A stretch of DNA of 64,000 nucleotides, from the UHGV virus genome UHGV-1364441, one strand, 5' to 3'. Below, one piece after another: positions 1-58,049 of the stretch. Both the position numbers and the translations under genes were made by a program. This DNA is from a virus. How positions within the stretch are numbered: the first letter of the stretch is position 1; each line of letters begins with the position of its first letter. The notes under the pieces were generated by a model. That model had not been told where the DNA came from, ran no database searches, and worked only from the letters and a program-made list of their open reading frames with translations.

Positions 1-185
1 GGTGAACCATGGAACGGTTTCAGCTACCAGTCGCGGCGGAAATCCTCCGTGACCGGAACAAAGTGTGTCGCTGGTGGCTATTGCGCTCATTCTTCATCTC
101 CTGGTTATTCGCCTATTGTCATCACTTTGTTATTTCGTCACTCAAAGAGAGAGTGAAATCACGGAACATTTACAATTCCCGTTTT

Positions 186-3140: not shown

Positions 3141-4802
3141 ATGAGTGAGGCAGAAGCCCGCCCGACTAACTTTATTCGTCAGATCATCGATGAAGATCTG
3201 GCAAGTGGTAAGCACACCACAGTACATACCCGTTTCCCGCCGGAACCGAATGGCTATCTGCATATTGGTCATGCGAAATCTATCTGCCTGAACTTCGGGA
3301 TCGCCCAGGACTATAAAGGCCAGTGCAACCTGCGTTTCGACGACACTAACCCGGTAAAAGAAGATATCGAGTACGTCGAGTCGATTAAAAACGACGTTGA
3401 ATGGTTAGGTTTTCACTGGTCTGGTAACGTCCGTTACTCCTCCGATTATTTTGATCAGCTCCACGCCTATGCTGTTGAACTGATCAACAAAGGCCTGGCG
3501 TATGTTGACGAACTGACGCCGGAACAGATCCGCGAATACCGCGGCACCCTGACGCAGCCGGGTAAAAACAGCCCGTACCGCGATCGCAGCGTTGAAGAGA
3601 ACCTGGCGCTGTTCGAAAAAATGCGTGCCGGTGGTTTTGAAGAAGGTAAAGCCTGCCTGCGTGCGAAAATCGACATGGCGTCGCCGTTTATCGTGATGCG
3701 CGATCCGGTGCTGTACCGCATTAAGTTTGCTGAACACCACCAGACTGGCAACAAGTGGTGCATCTACCCGATGTACGACTTCACCCACTGCATCAGCGAT
3801 GCGCTGGAAGGTATTACGCACTCTCTGTGTACGCTTGAGTTCCAGGACAACCGTCGCCTGTACGACTGGGTGCTGGACAACATCACCATTCCTGTTCACC
3901 CGCGCCAGTACGAATTCTCGCGCCTGAATCTGGAATACACTGTGATGTCCAAGCGTAAGCTGAACCTGCTGGTGACCGACAAGCACGTTGAAGGCTGGGA
4001 TGACCCGCGTATGCCGACCATTTCCGGTCTGCGTCGTCGTGGTTACACTGCGGCTTCTATTCGTGAGTTCTGCAAACGCATCGGCGTGACCAAGCAGGAC
4101 AACACCATTGAGATGGCGTCGCTGGAATCCTGCATCCGTGAAGATCTCAACGAAAATGCGCCGCGCGCAATGGCGGTTATCGATCCGGTGAAACTGGTCA
4201 TCGAAAACTATCAGGGAGAAGGCGAAATGGTCACCATGCCGAACCATCCAAACAAACCGGAAATGGGTAGCCGTCAGGTGCCGTTTAGCGGTGAGATTTG
4301 GATCGACCGCGCCGATTTCCGAGAAGAAGCTAACAAGCAGTACAAACGTCTGGTGCTGGGTAAAGAAGTGCGTCTGCGTAATGCTTACGTCATTAAGGCT
4401 GAACGCGTGGAGAAAGATGCCGAAGGCAATATCACCACCATCTTCTGTACTTATGACGCCGACACCTTAAGCAAAGATCCGGCAGATGGTCGTAAAGTGA
4501 AAGGCGTTATTCACTGGGTGAGCGCGGCACATGCGCTGCCGGTTGAAATCCGCCTGTACGATCGTCTGTTCAGCGTGCCGAACCCAGGTGCTGCTGATGA
4601 TTTCCTGTCGGTGATTAACCCGGAATCGCTGGTGATCAAACAGGGTTTTGCTGAACCGTCGCTGAAAGAAGCGGTAGCGGGTAAAGCATTCCAGTTTGAG
4701 CGTGAAGGTTATTTCTGCCTCGACAGCCGCCATTCTACGGCGGAAAAACCGGTATTTAACCGCACCGTTGGGCTGCGTGATACCTGGGCGAAGTTAGGTT
4801 AA
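3141..4802 (+). CDS. glnS: Glutaminyl-tRNA synthetase (class I aaRS), full length 553 aa
   Basis: HIGH motif (HIGHAKS), KMSKS-type motif (VMSKR), and end-to-end resemblance to enterobacterial GlnRS as I recall it. Confidence 0.95.
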
Positions 4803-7324: not shown

Positions 7325-7368
7325 CCAATTATGTTAGAAAATTCTATTCAATTATCTAACATAATTGG
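7325..7368. promoter_or_regulatory. Palindromic operator-like site: perfect 14-bp inverted repeat CCAATTATGTTAGA (16-bp spacer), upstream of the rdgC operon
   Basis: Read directly; carries the TGTTAGA core that recurs across the window. Confidence 0.55.
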
Positions 7369-7377
7369 ATGTATTTT

Positions 7378-8031
7378 CTATCCCTTCTTGAAATCAAAGT
7401 TGCTTGCGATAGCCTGGAAGGTGCCTCCAGCCTTGAAATCAATATTTTCGTCGGCTGTCACAGTAATGTTTTTGCCATTAACGCTGATGTTATCGGCTGA
7501 TTTGACGTTAACACTCCCTCCCGCATTCACTACTACATCAGCCGGACCAATGATGTATATCTGCCCTGATTCATTCATTCCAATCCTTGAGCCTGCTGCC
7601 GTATTCGCTATTTCATATCCACCGCCAGCCGTTCGCACTTCGAGCACATTGTTGCGGTGAATCACGAAATCTTTTGTCGCCGAAAATTGCGGGCGGGGAG
7701 GCGCTCCGTCTACTTCTGGTGGCGTCCAGCCGCTACCATTGCCTGACGCCTCCGGCGCGACGTTTGGTACTCCGCCAGGCGCATCCTGAGCTGCGCCAAC
7801 TATCATTGGGCGTCTGGTATCAATTCGACCATTAACATCCAGATAAGGAAACTCTACCCATACCAGGTCGCCTTTTACTGTAGGTACAAACGCGTTACCT
7901 ATGGGTAACAGGTATTCTGCCCAGGGTAGATCGTCATCAGGAACGCCATTCCAGTCTGGTAAAACACGGACCTGAGCACGCATAAGCCCTGCCGGGTGCA
8001 CAGTTCCAACAATTTGCGCTCTACGCTTCAT
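7378..8031 (-). CDS. Baseplate central spike-like protein (gpV/gp5 OB-fold plus beta-helix type)
   Basis: N-terminal OB-fold-like region and C-terminal V-x-V-N-G/K repeats (SVNVKSADNISVNGKNITV); ATGA-coupled to upstream gene. Confidence 0.4.
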   Translation of the reverse strand: MKRRAQIVGTVHPAGLMRAQVRVLPDWNGVPDDDLPWAEYLLPIGNAFVPTVKGDLVWVEFPYLDVNGRIDTRRPMIVGAAQDAPGGVPNVAPEASGNGSGWTPPEVDGAPPRPQFSATKDFVIHRNNVLEVRTAGGGYEIANTAAGSRIGMNESGQIYIIGPADVVVNAGGSVNVKSADNISVNGKNITVTADENIDFKAGGTFQAIASNFDFKKG

Positions 8032-9008
8032 TTGTTCGGCACTCCTAATATCATTCGTGTTGTGTAGCCTACGCGGTCTTCAAAGTGCGCAACATTTTTT
8101 ACTATCAGCTTGCGGGGCATTGATTCATCAATGCGGTTTTCCTGGTCATAGCGGTATACGATAATCTCTATTACCATTCCCGGTTTTATATCCGGATTGC
8201 CTGCGACTTCTATATCCATTTTGGGGACGAGAGACAGCTGCATATTGCGAAGAGTTTCCATATCAGAGTCGGATATATAACGCACTGGGAGTGAGCTATC
8301 GCCATATTCGACGTAGCCATCGGTCATGGAATACCCAACAAAACGATATTGATTCTTTGCTGTTGTCGCATGTTCCTGTTGGAGTAGGCGCATTTTGGAC
8401 AAAGTGTATTCTGCTTTAGGGTTATTCCCCTCGTAGGTAAATGATGGCGTTTGCTTCATCAGATCAGCCAGGGTGTAAAAGTTAAATTCCCCCCGGCATA
8501 CCCAACATAATGCACCTTTGTCTCGCGCTATCTGCGAGAGCATTTTTGACGGTTTGTCGCCTGCGTTCAGGTGATATGTAACCGCACGCTTTAAGACACT
8601 GCTGGAAATTTTAAGATTGCCGCTATACGCCTTGAATATGGTGTCCGGCGTTTTGTTCGTGTGTAGATTGGTGCGAGGGGAGGGGATCTTAAACCGATGC
8701 ACGTCTTCACTGACCGCAATAACGGTAACTACATCCCCAGCCAGCATTGCTGACGTAACAAAAAAAGTTGTTTTAAAAGTGCCTGCATTACCGTTTGGAT
8801 CGCCCATTTCAGCCACCAGCGATGCACCGTATTTAGCTTTCCAGTCATCAATTATGGTGCCTGTCATGTCATGAATTTCCAGCTTCAATAACGGCGCTTT
8901 AAGGCTGCTCTTTTCCACGTACACTGCGGTAAAAATCCAGTCTCGTGGCACTTTGTTATCGTTAATTGTGACTGACTGGAGGAAGTATTGTTGTAACTCC
9001 TGGGACAT
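8028..9008 (-). CDS. Hypothetical protein (in operon with spike-like gene)
   Basis: 326-aa ORF, translationally coupled both sides. Confidence 0.5.
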   Translation of the reverse strand: MSQELQQYFLQSVTINDNKVPRDWIFTAVYVEKSSLKAPLLKLEIHDMTGTIIDDWKAKYGASLVAEMGDPNGNAGTFKTTFFVTSAMLAGDVVTVIAVSEDVHRFKIPSPRTNLHTNKTPDTIFKAYSGNLKISSSVLKRAVTYHLNAGDKPSKMLSQIARDKGALCWVCRGEFNFYTLADLMKQTPSFTYEGNNPKAEYTLSKMRLLQQEHATTAKNQYRFVGYSMTDGYVEYGDSSLPVRYISDSDMETLRNMQLSLVPKMDIEVAGNPDIKPGMVIEIIVYRYDQENRIDESMPRKLIVKNVAHFEDRVGYTTRMILGVPNK

Positions 9009-9011
9009 TGA

Positions 9012-9779
9012 TTACCCCATAGCCAGCGAGGTTTCAGTAACAACGCGTTTCGCGTCCAATTCCCAGGCTGTGATTACATCCGCAATGACGCTTACAGGTG
9101 CCTGAGTAGCATAAATCCTCTCTTCTCCCACTGGTGCCGAAACATCCGTAAATCCAACGTCTTTAGCATCCTGAATGGAGCAAATCAGAGGAACAGGAAC
9201 ACGCACCAGGTTAGTGTTTGCCTCAAATTGTGTTCCGGTCATCAGGCGGAGCCGCGCGCCCAGCGAATTACACATCAGACTCATGGTTGCTTTATCAGTA
9301 GCCATTAACGTAACGTCATAAGTCAGGATAGCCTGGGTGTATTCCAGAGTCGCTAAAGGCATTCCAGTATCCGGGTTGCAAAAACTGGCAGTTTGCCTGC
9401 GGTCTATCTGCTGATCATCATTGATATAGCTGATATCCATAGACCGGGAGATGTTGATCAACGGCAAGGCATCGCGATTAATGTTCTGGTTTTCCGGTTT
9501 TCTTCCTTGCCCAGCATTTGCGCGACGAACTGCTTTAAGAAACTCGATCGCATTGTCGAAACGGGCCACATAGACACGCTCTGCTGGTGGACGATTCAGG
9601 AATGACGCAAAGCGTTTTTCTTCCGGCGCGGGGGCCACCAGTAAGATATCAGAAAAGATATTGCTGATTAGCGTAGCAAACGCGTTATCCACGTTTTCAA
9701 AGCCCGTGGTCTGGAATTTCCCTGTGCGTGAGGTTTGCCATTCACCTGTTCGCGCCAGGAGGGTTTTATTTGAAGTCAT
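9012..9779 (-). CDS. Hypothetical protein
   Basis: 255-aa ORF, start overlaps the upstream stop. Confidence 0.5.
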   Translation of the reverse strand: MTSNKTLLARTGEWQTSRTGKFQTTGFENVDNAFATLISNIFSDILLVAPAPEEKRFASFLNRPPAERVYVARFDNAIEFLKAVRRANAGQGRKPENQNINRDALPLINISRSMDISYINDDQQIDRRQTASFCNPDTGMPLATLEYTQAILTYDVTLMATDKATMSLMCNSLGARLRLMTGTQFEANTNLVRVPVPLICSIQDAKDVGFTDVSAPVGEERIYATQAPVSVIADVITAWELDAKRVVTETSLAMG

Positions 9780-10567
9780 TCGATCACTCCGTTTTGAGTC
9801 GTATCAAAATTCCTGGCAGGTATGCAGTAGTAAAGCGAACCAACATGCTGTGTGCCGTAGCTAAAAATACGGTGCACGTACCACCAGCGGCGGGCTACGC
9901 CGTTTACCATCTCTTCATTCCATTCAAGAATTGACCCGACGGGGACGTTATTTGCTGCAATACGCAGAATCAGAACATCATCGGTTAAGCCATCCTGCTC
10001 ACCGTCTGCGTCAATCGCATGGAAAGAGTCACGCCCGTCCGGGTTATCCAGCACATAAACGATTTCAGGTTCCTGGTAAGTCAGTTCGCGCTGGTTGTTA
10101 TCCAGTTCAGTGAATGACTCTTCTCCTGTTTCGTCGCTGACTACCCCATATGTGCCAACATCTGGTCGATATAAGAGAGCCTGAAACGCGTCTGGGCTGG
10201 ATTCAATAATCAGCATCCAGTCTGCGCGGATTTGGTCGTTAAAGGCTTTATGCCCGTTATAGCGCGCTTTTAGCTGTGGAGTTGGTTCTCTGCCTGCCAG
10301 GGAAGGTGGAAGTATGGCTATATCTGATTCGCCAGCATCTGGAGTAAGGCCACCGTTGCTATCAGCAAAATTATCATGGCTATCAGCTTTGGCGGCGGGT
10401 TGCTCTTCCAGAATGCTGAATGAATCCGAACTGGTATTGCCATGTTCCGGCGCGCCTCCTGCATTCGCTTCAATCGGCGCTGGCGTTTCTCTCTGCGTGC
10501 TGTCATGTTCTGACCCCTTACTTGCCAGGTTTGCATCGTCAGAAAACCATTCGTCAAAACGGCCCAT
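9776..10567 (-). CDS. Hypothetical acidic protein
   Basis: Start set at MGRFDEWF (GAGGA 6 nt upstream) rather than track start 10690. Confidence 0.45.
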   Translation of the reverse strand: MGRFDEWFSDDANLASKGSEHDSTQRETPAPIEANAGGAPEHGNTSSDSFSILEEQPAAKADSHDNFADSNGGLTPDAGESDIAILPPSLAGREPTPQLKARYNGHKAFNDQIRADWMLIIESSPDAFQALLYRPDVGTYGVVSDETGEESFTELDNNQRELTYQEPEIVYVLDNPDGRDSFHAIDADGEQDGLTDDVLILRIAANNVPVGSILEWNEEMVNGVARRWWYVHRIFSYGTQHVGSLYYCIPARNFDTTQNGVIE

Positions 10568-10873
10568 AAGCATCCTCAAAGGTCGATTTATCAGGTATCG
10601 AGGGGCATTGTCTGGAGATTGTGATTTCACATGAACAAGCTCAAGTTGCACTTGCACTTGCGCATGGTGAATTGGGTTACAATTCATCACAAAGCCATCT
10701 TTTATGCTACATTTGCATTTTTTTATTGTTATTATATCATTATTCGTGTCTTAGGCTGATTGTTGTACTATTGCTTGTTGCGAAGTGAATTTGTGCATAA
10801 GTAACCAGTTGAGTAGAGAGACACGTCGCTCAGAGCGTGGAAAGTATTGAGTGCAATAGAGAGATAATACAAA

Positions 10874-11074
10874 ATGAGGAAGATTCTTTTGACATCAGAG
10901 GTCAAGACCTTGCTACGCATCAAGTCTGATCGGACCCTGACGAAGATGATTAATAGAGGCGAGTTCCCCAAAGGATTCCGTATCGGGCTGCGTCGCATTG
11001 GCTGGTATGAAGACGAGGTGCTAGCTTGGTTGAAAGAGCGTGAGGAAGAAGCTCGTGGCGGAGAGATGTCATAA
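10874..11074 (+). CDS. AlpA-family small HTH regulator / excisionase-like protein
   Basis: 66 aa, EVKTLLRIKSDRTLTKMINRGEFPKGFRIGLRRIGWYEDEVLAWL matches the AlpA pattern. Confidence 0.7.
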   Translation: MRKILLTSEVKTLLRIKSDRTLTKMINRGEFPKGFRIGLRRIGWYEDEVLAWLKEREEEARGGEMS

Positions 11075-11131
11075 TCTCCAACCAGAAGAACTGGAATGAG
11101 TTCATCCCCGCCCAGAAGGGCGGGGATGACG

Positions 11132-12334
11132 TTAAGTTTTAGCATTGTTCTTCACATATTCCACAAACATCTTTTCTGCTTGTGCTGGTGGCGTGCCCGT
11201 CATGATAAGAGCATCAATAAACGCCTGCTTCTTCAGTGCGAACTGATCAGCAAGGCGTTGCTGAAGTTCCTTGTTTTTCTGTTTCTCTCGTTGCAAAGCT
11301 GCTTCTTTTGCCTCCGCCCGTTTTTTCTGTGCGTCTGACAACTTTCTGGCCCTGGTCAGTTGGTCACGTAGCTTGTCGATCTTGCCGTTGTCCTTTGCCA
11401 GTTTTGTACTTAAAGCGGTCTGGCGCTTCTGATAGAGCCTCCATTCGCGCTTGGCGGCGTCAACGTTCGTTTTACTGCTACGATTGCGATTAAACTCCTT
11501 CTCGTCTTCTTTTGAGAAGTGTTTGGTTGTACGGCGCCGATCGTCACCAAATGCAATTTGCGTTGCGGCCTTTTGTAACGCACGAGCAATACTCATTTGC
11601 CAACTGGCGGACTGTAACCGCGTCATTGAGTGGATCACGTGTTTACAGGCGACGCCTTGTAGCTTAGGGTTACGAACTTTTGGATAGGCGTATTCTTTTG
11701 GCGGGGCCAGGGCAAAGTTACCCGCAGTAGCAATGTAACGATACCAGTATTGATGACGACCACAGTCACAATCGAAAGACACTCGCCCGGCGCACAGTGA
11801 TTTAGTGATTTTGAGAGCTGATTTATCGTCTTCTGCGATGTCATCAACCATCTGATCCCATTCTTCAAAGCGTATACGGACGATATGGTGCTGGTGGACG
11901 GATATATCCGATGCTTCTACGCGGATATTAATCACATTGTGGCGAAGAGATACGGGTGTAGCTCTTTTGATACCAGATCCGTCATCCACGGCGTTATTTG
12001 CACGCTTAATATCGATTGCCTGGCTGGATGCCACCAGCTGGGCGTATGTGATGCCAGCCGTCTTGCTGTCATATTTTTCGCGCGTTTTACTCCGTAGCTT
12101 TTCGAAACCTTTCAGGTCGTCTCGCGTGAAGAACGTGCCGCCTTTTTTCTTCCCTAACTTGAGAATATCTTCGGCGGATTTGTTCCTCAGTCTACCTGGC
12201 GTCAGCGTCCGGTGAGCTTGTCGGCGCTTACGGGTTTGTTCTTTCCTGATAAGCTCGAATAAACGCGTGAAGTCCTTAGAGGACAGGCCGTCAGTGATAT
12301 AGCGCCCGTCCTGGTTTTTCAGGAAATCAGGCAT
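11132..12334 (-). CDS. SWIM zinc-finger protein with basic coiled-coil C-terminus
   Basis: CDCGRH...CKH (CxCx(n)CxH) motif; K/R/E/Q-rich tail. Confidence 0.55.
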   Translation of the reverse strand: MPDFLKNQDGRYITDGLSSKDFTRLFELIRKEQTRKRRQAHRTLTPGRLRNKSAEDILKLGKKKGGTFFTRDDLKGFEKLRSKTREKYDSKTAGITYAQLVASSQAIDIKRANNAVDDGSGIKRATPVSLRHNVINIRVEASDISVHQHHIVRIRFEEWDQMVDDIAEDDKSALKITKSLCAGRVSFDCDCGRHQYWYRYIATAGNFALAPPKEYAYPKVRNPKLQGVACKHVIHSMTRLQSASWQMSIARALQKAATQIAFGDDRRRTTKHFSKEDEKEFNRNRSSKTNVDAAKREWRLYQKRQTALSTKLAKDNGKIDKLRDQLTRARKLSDAQKKRAEAKEAALQREKQKNKELQQRLADQFALKKQAFIDALIMTGTPPAQAEKMFVEYVKNNAKT

Positions 12335-12656
12335 TTTCTATCTCCGGTTCCGCGCTCGCGTAATCACGGATCTTGTTCCTCAGCCATGCGACATCAGGAA
12401 GAGTTAACGTGGTCCCGGCGGGCATTTCTTCCATTTCTGACTCATGGCCCACCAGCACCCGGAATACCCAGCGCAAATCTGCATTGCCATACGCCCTGTA
12501 GGCTGCAAGGTCTGAACGATATACTTCATCAATCTTTATCGTGTACTGGAAATTATCAGAGTGATACTCCGATACCCGCTTAATCATTTCCTGGTGAAAC
12601 AGCGCACGAAAAATATCGTCTTCAATGTACCTATCGTCGAGTCTGCTATAGCCCAT
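12327..12656 (-). CDS. Hypothetical protein (coupled upstream partner of the SWIM gene)
   Basis: 109-aa ORF overlapping the SWIM gene start by 8 nt. Confidence 0.45.
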   Translation of the reverse strand: MGYSRLDDRYIEDDIFRALFHQEMIKRVSEYHSDNFQYTIKIDEVYRSDLAAYRAYGNADLRWVFRVLVGHESEMEEMPAGTTLTLPDVAWLRNKIRDYASAEPEIENA

Positions 12657-12747
12657 AACAAAGCTCCTCAGTCATAACCTGGGGAAACTTTATGGAGGAT
12701 GTGAAATGCGAGAAAGCAGCGTCACCAGGGCGGGTGACGCTGTGAAA

Positions 12748-13041
12748 TTAAGCGTGGAAAAATAACGGGCGGATATTTGGGCGAGCGGTTTGTGAAGCGA
12801 CCCAAAGCTCATACTGGGATTGCATACCAGTCCACATCTCGGCACTGGTTCCCAGAGCAGATTCCAGACGAAGCGCCATATCAGCAGAAATCCCTGCTTT
12901 CTCGTTCAGAATCCGAGAAAGCGCCGTGCGAGTAATGCCTAATGCGGCAGCTGCATCTGTGACTGATATGTCTCCCAGATACTCACGAAGAACCGCGCCA
13001 GGATGCGCGGGATTATGCATACGACTCATAGTGTTCCTCAA
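12748..13041 (-). CDS. higA: HigA-like HTH antitoxin
   Basis: XRE-type HTH ([22 protein letters not shown]); ATGA overlap with the toxin gene stop. Confidence 0.75.
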
Positions 13042-13319
13042 TGATAATCCTGATAGTCAACAAGAATTGCGTCTTCGCCTTCAAATCGGAAGGTAAGTCG
13101 CCAGTTACCGTTTACTGATATTGCCCAGTGACCTTTAAGGTCTGCCCCCTTTAGTGGGTGCAATTCCCATCCCGGCGCAGACATATCGTCCGGGCGTTTA
13201 GCTGCATTAAGAGCAGTCAATTGAATGCGTAGCTTAATCGCATGTTTAGCTTGAATGCCTGCTGTTGATCCTGTCTTGAAAAATCGTTCAAGCCCTTTAT
13301 GGCGAAATGACTTAATCAA
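13038..13319 (-). CDS. higB: HigB-like toxin (RelE/ParE superfamily)
   Basis: (M)[13 protein letters not shown] ... HPLKGD ... YQDYH; start proposed at in-frame TTG 13319 giving 93 aa. Confidence 0.7.
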
Positions 13320-13655
13320 AATAACTTCATCCGTGCCTGTATCCTGTGTATACACAGTACACACGGAGAGGGCAAAGTGCAAGCACTATTCGGATGAACA
13401 GAGTTAGTTCGTTGTTCTGGAATTTATTGATTGTCAACAAGTGACTTTCATTAAACTTAAGGCATGGACCAGCTCGATAGTGAGCTGGTTGTTATCTACA
13501 GATCGAAGGGATTCGACAAGATGAATACTTTTAATAAGCTGATTGATTTATTGAATAAATTCATTAGCGCCTCTTTAACTAAGCAGGTGTCCACGTCAGT
13601 GTTTTTGTTACTCTTCTACCTGGTATTGCGGGAGTTAACAAAGCTACTGATGTGA

Positions 13656-56366: not shown

Positions 56367-58049
56367 TTAATTGCTCATCACAAATTTTGCAAAGTTTATT
56401 AACTGTTCTGGCGTCCAGTTTTCCGGATCGTCACCGGACGACAACGGCGCGGATTCGTACATACCATGCTCGTTGTTTTGCTCTGATTCATTCGCCTTAA
56501 ACTCTTTGATCATGGTGTTGAGAGTGTCATCGTCGATGTGCAACTGCTCAGTGAACAGATAACGCATAAACGCGTCGCTACCAGCCAGTTTCGGGTTGTT
56601 CTGGATCTGGTCCATAATTTGGGAGATGACAGCAACAAAGTTGGCGCGTGCATCCAGTTCTCGGTTTTCCTCTTCCTGGATAGCAGTGTTCATTGAGTTG
56701 AATTGCACGTCATAAGGGCGGTTTGTTTCGGTGTAAACCTTGCCGTATTTATAAGCGAGGTGAATGTCCAGAAGCCGATAAATAGTTCGCTGGGCGGCCT
56801 GTCTGATCCAGTTCGCACGCAATGCAGCCTGGATAGCAGTTTGCTGCCAGCCGCCTTCTCCAAGCCCTCCGCTCATCTGATCAGCCCAGCCAAGCATTGT
56901 TGCGTCAATGCCGAGGCTTGCAGCAAGCTGCCGGAGGTGAAACATAACGTCTTCGATACCACTGATATCTGCGGGTATGGATTGCGTATCAATGGTGATG
57001 CCGTTCTTCCCGTCTCCCATAACAGGTATCAGATGGTTAAGCACAGTCGGAATAGCGTTGGCATTAATCGACCTTTGCGCCACCAGGTCACTATGACGCT
57101 TCAATGCCTGGCTGACGCCACGCGTATAGTTCGCCGCATTAACCGGGTCCAGTGTGTTCGTCGTAAGAGCAATCAGGCGGTCAATTTTGGCTGCATTATT
57201 TCGCGTTGATTTCAGCGCGGCGAGCGAAGCACATAAATTAAGGTAAGGTTCATAGCTGTATTCCAGGAATGAAGTTCCGTAATTCTGCGTCTCCATTAAC
57301 GGCTTATCAGCCTGATCACTTAACAGTGAGTACCCTTTTGTGCCGTAGCTAACCGGAATAACTTTATGCTGTGGCGTCCAATAGGGATTTTTCATGGAAA
57401 CCAGATTCCACGGTTCGGTTATTACTCTGCGCAAACTATGCGTATCCAGAATGTAATCACCACTGAAACCTACCAGCTGGCTACCACGATAAAACTCCTG
57501 GACGAAGTGTGGCAGAGTGTAATAACTGGACTCAATGCCTGTTATCCCCCTGCCCTGTTCAGCATAAGGTCGGACATAAGACACCCCAAAGATAGCCATA
57601 ATCATGGCCCATGAAGGAAGTCCGTCATTAATCATCGCCCCCAAATCAGCGGTTAACTCTTCACATCTACTTACTGCCTCAGCATCGGAACCATCCTTTG
57701 GCGAAAGGATGAATGCTTGTCCGGTTTTTTTTGAAGGCGCAAGCGCATGTGCAATGTGAATGTTTAAAGCCGTCGAGATAGTCGGGCTTTTAGCCATCGT
57801 TTCCAGGATGTTGTACTTTTGCAGGCGCTCGCCGGGCAGTTCAGCGGATAAAGAAATTGAATCTGCTGCACTCGTCATGCCATCGCTGTTGCTCCCCAGT
57901 ATACCTGGACGTAAAGCAGACAGGCCGGAACGAGCAACGACACTATGCCCGCTCGTAAAAACGACCGGATCGGCGGGCGTAACATCACCACCGTTGAAGG
58001 CTTTCTTCAATGCTGACAGAAAGCCTTTGTTTTTGTCTTTCGTTGCCAT
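56367..58049 (-). CDS. Hypothetical protein (560 aa), possible virion or portal-class protein
   Basis: Size and operon position only. Confidence 0.45.
   Translation of the reverse strand: MATKDKNKGFLSALKKAFNGGDVTPADPVVFTSGHSVVARSGLSALRPGILGSNSDGMTSAADSISLSAELPGERLQKYNILETMAKSPTISTALNIHIAHALAPSKKTGQAFILSPKDGSDAEAVSRCEELTADLGAMINDGLPSWAMIMAIFGVSYVRPYAEQGRGITGIESSYYTLPHFVQEFYRGSQLVGFSGDYILDTHSLRRVITEPWNLVSMKNPYWTPQHKVIPVSYGTKGYSLLSDQADKPLMETQNYGTSFLEYSYEPYLNLCASLAALKSTRNNAAKIDRLIALTTNTLDPVNAANYTRGVSQALKRHSDLVAQRSINANAIPTVLNHLIPVMGDGKNGITIDTQSIPADISGIEDVMFHLRQLAASLGIDATMLGWADQMSGGLGEGGWQQTAIQAALRANWIRQAAQRTIYRLLDIHLAYKYGKVYTETNRPYDVQFNSMNTAIQEEENRELDARANFVAVISQIMDQIQNNPKLAGSDAFMRYLFTEQLHIDDDTLNTMIKEFKANESEQNNEHGMYESAPLSSGDDPENWTPEQLINFAKFVMSN

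What the first reader, a model, noticed from the sequence alone, without database searches (positions are those of the whole stretch)
7378..10567. Isolated four-gene module ending in a baseplate-spike-like protein
Four translationally coupled minus-strand genes end with a 217-aa protein that has an OB-fold-like N-terminus and beta-helix-like VxVNG repeats, typical of gpV/gp5 spikes. The module is far from the other candidate virion genes in the window and is flanked by regulatory and methyltransferase genes, so its context is atypical.
Basis: inference. Interest (0 to 1): 0.35.

Follow-up and report, generated by a model that had tools for sequence, protein, structure and literature searches.

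The report
P1-type tail spike operon, already known
The four genes are the well-characterised phage P1 tail genes 7, 24, 6 and 5 (neck stopper, tail terminator, baseplate hub and puncturing spike) in a D6-like phage-plasmid of E. coli, and their scattered position is normal for this phage family.

Summary
Four tightly coupled minus-strand genes (7378-10567) end in a 217-aa spike protein. It is not new. The window is a D6-like, P1-related phage-plasmid: 92.9% DNA identity to phage D6, and 126 similar E. coli, Salmonella and Shigella plasmids.

The four proteins are orthologs of P1 gp7, gp24, gp6 and gp5. All four have solved cryo-EM structures (9ums, 8jan, 9vzk), with roles as neck stopper, tail terminator, baseplate hub and lysozyme-less trimeric spike. 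The D6 GenBank record already labels them 'similar to P1 gene 5/6/24/7'. So only two of the four are baseplate parts.

The 'isolation' is not real. Orthologs of P1 genes 25 and 26 (baseplate plug) lie 565 bp upstream. The start of the spike-tip PAAR gene sits at the window's left edge. P1-family virion genes are known to be scattered.

One detail is specific to this lineage. P1's contiguous 26-25-7-24-6-5 late operon is split here between 25 and 7 by variable opposite-strand cargo, a rare AlpA-like regulator in this window. Gene 7 carries its own late-promoter-like motif (AAATCACAW-N6-nAnnnT). That motif recurs before other late operons and differs from P1's annotated late-promoter pattern.

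Interest is low.

The parts
7378..8031 (-). Ortholog of P1 gene 5: lysozyme-less central spike (OB-fold N-terminus, short beta-helix C-terminus), 217 aa
   Evidence: PDB 9vzk_q Gp5, E=5.4e-54, residues 2-202. 46% identical to P1 gp5 and 92% to D6 orf66. PHROG 430 E=7.5e-42. Octad repeats. A profile search gave weak hits to VgrG and central-spike beta-helices.
8028..9008 (-). Ortholog of P1 gene 6: trimeric baseplate hub (T4 gp27 / Mu gp44-like), 326 aa
   Evidence: PDB 9vzk_1 Gp6, E=1.6e-70. PHROG 1390 E=7.8e-142. Hub role from PMC12810830 and PMC9024508.
9012..9779 (-). Ortholog of P1 gene 24: hexameric tail terminator (T4 gp15-like), 255 aa
   Evidence: PDB 8jan_y Gp24, E=1.3e-15, residues 13-235. 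PHROG 1767 E=2.5e-109. Terminator role from PMC10304247.
9776..10567 (-). Ortholog of P1 gene 7: hexameric stopper of the head-tail connector, 263 aa, with an acidic low-complexity N-terminal linker
   Evidence: PDB 9ums_B Gp7, E=1.1e-42 over the C-terminal ~158 aa. PHROG 1906 E=2.6e-115. N-terminal motif shared with P1 gp7. Stopper role from PMC12810830.
10607..10627 (-). Late-promoter-like motif AAATCACAA-tCTcca-GACAAT, 40 nt upstream of the gene 7 ATG
   Evidence: The motif gives 8 hits in the window against 0.235 expected. All hits sit just upstream of late-type operons on the correct strand. The site is conserved in all three cargo variants (alignment A1). Its function is inferred, not shown.
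10874..11074 (+). AlpA-family HTH regulator gene (66 aa): opposite-strand cargo that splits the P1-type operon between genes 25 and 7
   Evidence: Pfam Phage_AlpA E=6.9e-6, 26.3 bits against a 21-bit cut-off. The insert 10636-11147 is found in only 2 PLSDB plasmids.
11102..11129 (.). GC-rich hairpin (12-bp stem, 9 GC pairs) between the convergent ends of gene 25 and alpA: candidate bidirectional terminator
   Evidence: Terminator scan, + strand. Sequence read. Function is inferred.
11132..12334 (-). Ortholog of P1 gene 25 ('tail stability', role unresolved), 400 aa
   Evidence: PHROG 1722 E=2.8e-196. 56% identical to P1 gp25. No PDB relative.
12327..12656 (-). Ortholog of P1 gene 26: baseplate plug (LysM/T4 gp53-like), 109 aa
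   Evidence: PDB 9ay5_S/9vzk Gp26, E=1e-16. PHROG 1269 E=2.3e-36. Plug role from PMC12810830.
12687..12707 (-). Two-mismatch variant of the same late-promoter-like motif (ATTTCACAT-cCTcca-TAAAGT) upstream of gene 26
   Evidence: This is weaker evidence than for the gene 7 site.
1..90 (-). First 30 codons of the upfC ortholog (PAAR spike-tip protein), cut by the window edge
   Evidence: Translation MSAIATSDTLCSGHGGFPP.... The window starts at D6 coordinate 56784, inside D6 upfC at 56589-56873.

Best explanation
The region is the distal two-thirds of the phage P1 '26-25-7-24-6-5' late tail operon, carried by a D6-like (P1-related) phage-plasmid. gp7 forms the hexameric stopper that closes the portal-adaptor channel and docks the head onto the tail. 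gp24 is the hexameric terminator capping the sheath and tube. gp6 is the trimeric hub that adapts the six-fold tube to three-fold symmetry. gp5 is a trimeric spike whose N-terminal OB-fold sits on the hub and whose C-terminal beta-helix forms the needle. The needle is capped by the PAAR protein UpfC and pierces the outer membrane on sheath contraction. gp5 has no lysozyme domain; in P1, peptidoglycan cleavage is attributed to the transglycosylase domain of the tape measure protein Sit. In the D6 lineage the operon is physically split between genes 25 and 7 by opposite-strand accessory cargo. Genes 7-24-6-5 are probably transcribed as their own late unit from a late-type promoter 40 nt upstream of gene 7. 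What is shown here: the homology and the gene order. What comes from the literature on P1: the protein roles. What is inferred: the promoter and the transcription unit.
For: DNA identity: 92.9% to phage D6, and 126 D6-like plasmids. The D6 record already annotates the genes as 'similar to P1 gene 5, 6, 24, 7, 25, 26'. Matches to solved P1 virion proteins: gp5 E=5e-54, gp6 E=2e-70, gp24 E=1e-15, gp7 E=1e-42, gp26 E=1e-16. Roles come from cryo-EM and proteomics in PMC12810830, PMC10304247 and PMC9024508. P1 genes 5, 6, 24 and 7 are essential in a CRISPRi screen (PMC10695390). P1 and Cronobacter phage JK004 keep the six genes in the same order, with genes 25 and 7 adjacent (JK004 has an unannotated ~485-bp gap between 24 and 6). 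D6-like elements carry three or more different inserts at the 25|7 junction. The motif AAAT[C/A]ACA[W/C]-nCT-nnn-nAnnnT gives 8 hits in the window against 0.235 expected, and 9 in D6. All hits are upstream of late-type operons (prt, lydA, R, pmgB/sit, mat, darB, ddrB, gene 7). The gene 7 site is conserved across the cargo variants.
Against: No experiment on this element was available, so virion incorporation is inferred from P1. gp24 is only 22% identical to P1 gp24. The N-terminal ~100 residues of gp7 are not alignable to P1 beyond the first 8 residues. The promoter motif was refined after its first members had been seen, so the enrichment statistic is partly circular. Its -10 hexamer at gene 7 (GACAAT/GAAAAT) is the weakest of the set. 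A perfect P1-type late element (AAGTGACTT-N4-TAAACT, 13439-13457 +) also exists, so which motif the D6-type Lpa recognises is not settled. My AlphaFold single-sequence model of gp5 failed (pLDDT 37).
Confidence: 0.95

Rival explanations
1. The four genes are a stand-alone or degenerate contractile-injection or T6SS-like remnant (VgrG-like spike plus accessory genes) that is unrelated to a functional virion and was acquired separately from the rest of the element.
For: A weak Pfam DUF2345 (VgrG C-terminal) hit, E=0.0055. Weak profile hits to VgrG and eCIS spikes.
Against: The whole window is collinear with the viable phage D6. All four proteins are full-length orthologs of P1 virion proteins. 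GC content matches the surroundings at 0.47-0.49. The hub is a separate gene, not fused as in VgrG. DUF2345 scores 17 bits against a 30.7-bit cut-off.
Confidence: 0.02
2. The 217-aa protein is a carbohydrate-binding or receptor-binding beta-helix protein (NCBI PGAP names the 201-aa version 'carbohydrate-binding domain-containing protein'), not a membrane-piercing spike.
For: PGAP product name in plasmid records. The C-terminus is rich in beta-helix repeats.
Against: The P1 ortholog is located by cryo-EM as the central trimeric spike under the hub, capped by UpfC (PMC12810830). No carbohydrate-binding Pfam family hit appeared. PGAP's start codon removes 16 residues that align with P1 gp5.
Confidence: 0.02
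3. Genes 7-24-6-5 have no promoter of their own. They are expressed by read-through from the gene 26 promoter across the cargo insert, as in the single P1 LP26 operon.
For: P1 annotates only LP26 for the six genes. The -10 hexamer of the gene 7 motif is weak. No P1-type late promoter lies upstream of gene 7.
Against: A 12-bp GC-rich hairpin and an opposite-strand gene separate 25 from 7, and the insert reaches 2 kb of antisense genes in D6. The motif upstream of gene 7 is conserved in all cargo variants while the flanking sequence is not. The same motif precedes other late operons. In P1, knock-down of 25 or 26 is far milder than knock-down of 7, 24, 6 or 5.
Confidence: 0.2

Closest known systems
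Phage P1 genes 7, 24, 6, 5 (PDB 9ums, 8jan, 9vzk) within the LP26 late operon
   Same: Same gene order, same tight coupling and same protein families. The roles are stopper, terminator, hub and lysozyme-less spike. Genes 25 and 26 lie upstream.
   Different: Amino-acid identity is 22-46%. In P1 the six genes are contiguous behind one annotated late promoter, while here they are split between 25 and 7. P1's downstream neighbour is dbn/ban, while here it is hrdC (rdgC) and two methyltransferases.
Escherichia phage D6 orf66-orf69 (NC_050154) and D6-like plasmid prophages
   Same: Amino-acid identity is 92-98%, with identical arrangement and flanks. The split occurs at the same 25|7 junction.
   Different: The cargo at the junction differs. 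D6 has RelE/ParE-HigA, a regulator and a hypothetical gene (2 kb). This window has a 0.5-kb AlpA-like insert found in only 2 PLSDB plasmids. The window also has a HigBA pair upstream of gene 26 that D6 lacks.
T4 gp5-gp27-gp5.4 cell-puncturing device
   Same: Architecture is shared: an OB-fold plus octad-repeat beta-helix spike, a separate hub protein and a PAAR-like tip. This rests on the P1 structure and HHpred results in the cited papers.
   Different: There is no lysozyme domain, and the protein is 217 aa against 575 aa (T4 gp5 length recalled from general knowledge, not checked here). No direct sequence hit to T4 gp5 was found here.
T6SS VgrG / eCIS spikes
   Same: The C-terminal beta-helix gives weak profile matches (E 0.003-0.9).
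   Different: VgrG fuses the gp27-like and gp5-like modules. Here the hub and the spike are separate genes, and the Pfam DUF2345 hit is below its threshold.

Membership tests
P1 gp5-type central spike (T4 gp5-like, lysozyme-less) | Significant full-length sequence homology to the structurally located P1 gp5 | tested here: met
   9vzk_q E=5.4e-54, query 2-202 against chain 7-203. 46% identity. The chain sequence is identical to P1 gene 5 translated from NC_005856.
P1 gp5-type central spike (T4 gp5-like, lysozyme-less) | N-terminal OB-fold domain | tested here: inconclusive
   The AlphaFold single-sequence model had pLDDT 37 and was unusable. The fold is inferred only from alignment of residues 2-80 to P1 gp5 and from HHpred and cryo-EM statements in PMC9024508 and PMC12810830.
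P1 gp5-type central spike (T4 gp5-like, lysozyme-less) | C-terminal beta-helix built from ~8-residue repeats | tested here: met
   About seven repeats with an 8-residue register (two of 7) from residue ~165 to 216. Weak profile hits fall in the beta-helix regions of central spike and VgrG chains.
P1 gp5-type central spike (T4 gp5-like, lysozyme-less) | No lysozyme domain between the OB-fold and the helix | tested here: met
   Total length is 217 aa, and no lysozyme or muramidase Pfam hit appeared.
P1 gp5-type central spike (T4 gp5-like, lysozyme-less) | Adjacent gp27/gp44-like hub gene, and a PAAR tip gene in the genome | tested here: met
   The hub ortholog is immediately upstream with an ATGA overlap. 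The start of upfC (PAAR) is at window 1-90, and the full gene is present in D6.
P1 gp5-type central spike (T4 gp5-like, lysozyme-less) | Trimer on the tail axis in virions | not testable with these tools
   Known only for P1 (PMC12810830).
P1 LP26 late operon (26-25-7-24-6-5) | Same six genes in the same order and on the same strand | tested here: met
P1 LP26 late operon (26-25-7-24-6-5) | Contiguous single transcription unit (25 stop and 7 start 3 nt apart) | tested here: not met
   A 565-bp gap holds an opposite-strand alpA-like gene and a strong hairpin.
P1-type Lpa-dependent late promoter (AAGTnACTT-N4-TAnnnT) | Consensus element upstream of gene 7 | tested here: not met
   The consensus was derived from 5 annotated P1 late promoters. 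No such site lies upstream of gene 7. A different motif is present instead.
P2 gpV / Mu gp45 spike (Pfam Phage_base_V) | Pfam family match | tested here: not met
   No hit at E<=0.1.
T6SS VgrG | Fused gp27-like and gp5-like modules, with DUF2345 above threshold | tested here: not met
   DUF2345 scores 17 bits against a 30.7-bit cut-off. The hub is encoded separately.

The most novel reading that the evidence does not exclude
In the D6 lineage the ancestral six-gene P1 tail operon has become two late transcription units separated by a cargo hot-spot. That hot-spot exchanges toxin-antitoxin pairs and small regulators. Late genes in this lineage would use a promoter element (AAATCACAW-nCT-N3-nAnnnT) that differs in sequence and spacing from the P1 late promoter. 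This would imply a shift in Lpa specificity between two related phage-plasmid lineages. I could not read the D6 genome paper, so this may already be described.
Probability: 0.5. Interest if true: 0.25.

Novelty: already known. Interest (0 to 1): 0.08.

Why it matters
It matters little. The finding re-identifies tail genes whose P1 orthologs have solved structures, genetic data and, for gp6, gp24 and gp7, virion proteomic detection (gp5 was located by cryo-EM only), and whose D6 orthologs are already annotated.

There are three practical points. First, public annotations are outdated or wrong. The hub is often called 'tail length tape measure protein', the terminator 'baseplate protein', and the spike 'carbohydrate-binding domain-containing protein' with a truncated start. 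Second, the 25|7 junction is a variable cargo site in widespread D6-like phage-plasmids. Third, a lineage-specific late-promoter-like motif could help define late operons in these elements.

Tried and rejected
1. AlphaFold2 on the 217-aa protein without an alignment gave pLDDT 37 and pTM 0.26. The model was unusable, so I ran no fold search. I ran no further search on it because an experimental structure of the ortholog exists.

2. I scanned the window for the P1-type late promoter (AAGTnACTT-N4-TAnnnT). With up to 2 mismatches it gave 9 hits against 9.9 expected, and none upstream of gene 7, prt or lydA. I rejected it as the promoter type used here. The one exception is a perfect site at 13439-13457 on the + strand.

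3. The generic sigma-70 scan gave fewer hits than shuffled sequence (4 against 8.6) and was uninformative. A window-specific TGATATAAT at about 10731-10739 (minus strand) is not conserved in the other cargo variants, so I did not take it as the operon promoter.

4. The P1 genome paper (PMC523184) and my guessed PMC id for the D6 genome paper (PMC5800970) are not held in the library.

5. I considered and rejected the T6SS/eCIS-remnant reading and the carbohydrate-binding reading (see the rival explanations).

6. I searched for a P1-type late promoter in the 3' end of P1 gene 25 and found none. There is one 1-mismatch site about 50 nt inside P1 gene 7, which remains unexplained.
Full report
**What is there.** Between 7378 and 10567 the minus strand carries four ORFs of 263, 255, 326 and 217 aa.
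- The first ORF runs mechanically to a GTG at 10690. Three things support the ATG at 10567: the PHROG profile match begins at residue 41, the D6 annotation uses that start, and the N-terminus MGRFDEWF matches P1 gp7 MAGFFDDMF.
- The junctions are ATGA overlaps (7/24 and 6/5) and a 3-nt gap (24/6). Each is preceded by a GGAG-type ribosome-binding site.

**What the element is.**
- The 6-kb stretch around the finding is 92.9% identical to Escherichia phage D6. It also matches 126 plasmids of E. coli, Salmonella and Shigella, almost all non-mobilisable.
- A local blastn shows the whole window is collinear with D6 from coordinate 56784, through the rox site, to 32199.
- D6 is a P1-related plasmid prophage, and D6-like plasmids are a described group (PMC6799933).

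**What the four proteins are.** All four hit chains of solved phage P1 virion structures.

| Window protein | P1 ortholog (PDB chain) | E-value | Role in P1 |
|---|---|---|---|
| 217 aa | Gp5 (9vzk_q) | 5.4e-54 | trimeric spike |
| 326 aa | Gp6 (9vzk_1) | 1.6e-70 | trimeric hub |
| 255 aa | Gp24 (8jan_y) | 1.3e-15 | hexameric tail terminator |
| 263 aa | Gp7 (9ums_B) | 1.1e-42 | hexameric stopper |

- The printed 9vzk_q sequence equals P1 gene 5 as translated from NC_005856.
- PHROG matches are very strong, from 7.5e-42 to 7.8e-142.
- The D6 GenBank record already labels the genes 'similar to P1 gene 5, 6, 24, 7'.
- The P1 proteome paper reached the same assignments for gp5, gp6 and gp24 by HHpred, and it detected gp6, gp24, gp7 and gp25 in virions (PMC9024508).
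- In a P1 CRISPRi screen, genes 5, 6, 24 and 7 are essential (PMC10695390).

**The spike.**
- The 217-aa protein aligns with P1 gp5 from residue 2 to 202 at 46% identity.
- Its last ~55 residues fall into about seven repeats of ~8 residues with alternating hydrophobic positions. This is the pattern of the gp5/VgrG triple beta-helix.
- A four-sequence profile (window, D6, P1, Cronobacter phage JK004) gives weak matches besides P1 gp5. These fall in 'baseplate central spike protein', 'Gp5/T6SS Vgr OB-fold protein' and several VgrG chains, mostly in their C-terminal helix region.
- No lysozyme domain or any other Pfam domain passes threshold. DUF2345 scores 17 bits against a 30.7-bit cut-off.
- My single-sequence AlphaFold model failed (pLDDT 37). 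The OB-fold is therefore supported only through homology to the solved P1 protein.
- PGAP calls a 201-aa version of this protein 'carbohydrate-binding domain-containing protein'. The 16 residues it omits align with P1 gp5, and the longer start overlaps the stop codon of gene 6. The 217-aa call is the better one.

**Mechanism.** These statements are transferred from the P1 structures and are not shown for this element.
- The gp5 trimer sits beneath the gp6 hub at the tip of the tail tube and is sharpened by UpfC.
- Sheath contraction drives the tube and spike through the outer membrane.
- Peptidoglycan cleavage is attributed in P1 to the transglycosylase domain of the tape measure protein Sit, not to the spike (PMC9024508).
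- gp24 and gp7 act at the other end of the tail. They terminate tail polymerisation and join the tail to the filled head.
- The module is therefore not a baseplate module. It encodes parts from both ends of the tail.

**Context.**
- The claimed isolation does not hold. On the same strand, 565 bp upstream, lie orthologs of P1 gene 25 (400 aa, 56% identical) and gene 26 (109 aa). Gene 26 encodes the baseplate plug, with PDB 9ay5/9vzk at E=1e-16.
- In P1 the order 26-25-7-24-6-5 is one contiguous block behind the annotated late promoter LP26, with the stop of 25 and the start of 7 only 3 nt apart. Cronobacter phage JK004 has the same order with 25 and 7 adjacent, apart from an unannotated ~485-bp gap between genes 24 and 6.
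- The first 30 codons of upfC (PAAR) are at window 1-90.
- The large tail block (fibres, gene 16, bplA, pmgA, sit, tub, bplB, sheath) lies at D6 coordinates 32-52 kb, which is outside the window.
- Scattered virion genes are a known property of P1 (PMC9024508).
- Downstream, the first neighbour is RdgC/HrdC (Pfam E=5e-103), followed by two DNA methyltransferases.

**What is lineage-specific.**
- In D6-like elements the operon is split between 25 and 7 by opposite-strand cargo.
- This window and two PLSDB plasmids carry a 0.5-kb insert with a 66-aa AlpA-family regulator.
- D6 and a few others carry a 2-kb RelE/ParE-HigA-regulator-hypothetical set. Others carry HigB plus an HTH protein. Many records are mosaics of these.
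- A 12-bp GC-rich hairpin lies between the convergent ends of gene 25 and alpA.

**The promoter-like motif.**
- About 62 bp directly upstream of the gene 7 ATG is conserved in every cargo variant, while the sequence beyond it is unrelated.
- This block contains AAATCACAA-tCTcca-GACAAT.
- The P1 late-promoter pattern, derived from five annotated P1 promoters, is AAGTnACTT-N4-TAnnnT. It is absent upstream of gene 7, prt and lydA here.
- The motif AAAT[C/A]ACA[W/C]-nCT-nnn-nAnnnT instead occurs 8 times in the window against 0.235 expected (maximum 2 in 200 shuffles). It occurs 9 times in D6. Every site is just upstream of a late-type operon on the correct strand.
- The operons are gene 7, mat, lpa, darB, a CHAP-domain lysis-type gene, prt, ddrB and lydA, plus R and pmgB/sit in the part of D6 outside the window.
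- Two of these positions (prt, lydA) coincide with P1's annotated LPpro and LPdar.
- A two-mismatch version precedes gene 26.
- I therefore infer that 7-24-6-5 is an autonomous late transcription unit in this lineage.
- Two caveats apply. The pattern was refined after its first members had been seen, and no transcript data exist.
- In P1, knock-down of 25 or 26 is much milder (efficiency of plating ~0.1) than knock-down of 7, 24, 6 or 5. This is compatible with internal starts near the 25/7 junction there too, but it does not prove them.

**Verdict.**
- The 'baseplate module' and 'atypical context' readings are not correct.
- The genes are already known and structurally characterised in P1 and are annotated in D6.
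- Novelty: already known. Interest: low.
- The only mildly new items are the cargo hot-spot that splits the operon and the D6-type late-promoter-like motif. Both may already be in the D6 genome paper, which I could not read.

Noticed in passing
window 10627, 14466, 38040, 52066, 58102, 59549, 63333 (all minus strand), 52090 (plus strand); variant at 12707 (minus): The recurrent motif AAAT[C/A]ACA[W/C]-nCT-nnn-nAnnnT sits immediately upstream of late-type operons (gene 7, mat, lpa, darB, CHAP-domain gene, prt, ddrB, lydA, gene 26). There are 8 hits against 0.235 expected, and it differs from the annotated P1 late promoter AAGTnACTT-N4-TAnnnT. It is probably the late (Lpa-dependent) promoter of the D6 lineage.
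   Followed up: partly
window 10636-11147, compared with L001 12561-14674, L007 4069-4913 and L006: The junction between genes 25 and 7 is a cargo hot-spot in D6-like phage-plasmids. The AlpA-like regulator variant occurs here and in 2 PLSDB records. The RelE/ParE-HigA-regulator-hypothetical variant occurs in 7 records, and the HigB+HTH variant in 24. More than 100 records are mosaics. The cargo is always on the strand opposite the tail genes.
   Followed up: partly
window 12748-13382 (minus strand): A HigB-like toxin (Pfam E=4.8e-21) and an HTH antitoxin pair are inserted between gene 26 and mat. This pair is absent from D6 at that site but present in several plasmids. It marks a second variable cargo site flanking the tail genes.
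   Followed up: partly
window 13439-13457 (plus strand); D6 around 71104: A perfect P1-type late promoter element, AAGTGACTT-tcat-TAAACT, faces away from gene 26 and is conserved in D6. It is the positional counterpart of P1's divergent LP26/LPpmgL element. About 0.03 such sites are expected by chance. How it relates to the AAATCACA motif is unclear.
   Followed up: partly
L003 (P1 NC_005856) position 10799, minus strand: P1 has a 1-mismatch late-promoter-like site, AAGTGACTG-N4-TAACCT, about 50 nt inside gene 7, and none in the end of gene 25. Together with the mild CRISPRi phenotype of genes 25 and 26, this hints at internal transcription starts in the P1 operon.
   Followed up: no
window 7327-7366: A perfect 12-bp inverted repeat (AATTATGTTAGA ... 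TCTAACATAATT, 16-nt loop) lies between the gene 5 stop and the rdgC/hrdC start. It overlaps a sigma-70-like TAGAAA-18-GATAAT site and could be an operator or a weak terminator.
   Followed up: no
window 11132-12334 (minus strand): The gp25 ortholog has a CxC...CxH arrangement (FDCDCGRH ... GVACKHVIH) that looks like a SWIM-type zinc finger by eye, followed by a long charged coiled-coil-like tail. It has no Pfam hit and no PDB relative, and P1 gp25 was not located in the cryo-EM maps, so its role remains open.
   Followed up: no
window 7378-9008 and public records (L002, L006, L008): Annotation errors are propagating in databases. The hub gp6 is often named 'tail length tape measure protein'. 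The terminator gp24 is named 'baseplate protein'. The spike gp5 is named 'carbohydrate-binding domain-containing protein' with a start codon 16 residues too late.
   Followed up: yes
window 3141-4802 (plus strand): A 553-aa ORF corresponds by position to the glutaminyl-tRNA synthetase gene (glnS) that D6-like plasmid prophages carry. This is an unusual phage cargo already noted in PMC6799933.
   Followed up: no
L002 around 12600-12660 compared with window 10640-10665: The hexamer GCAAGT is tandemly repeated upstream of gene 7. Plasmid NZ_CP122510 has five more copies than the window (alignment A1), so this is a small variable tandem repeat inside the AlpA-type insert.
   Followed up: no
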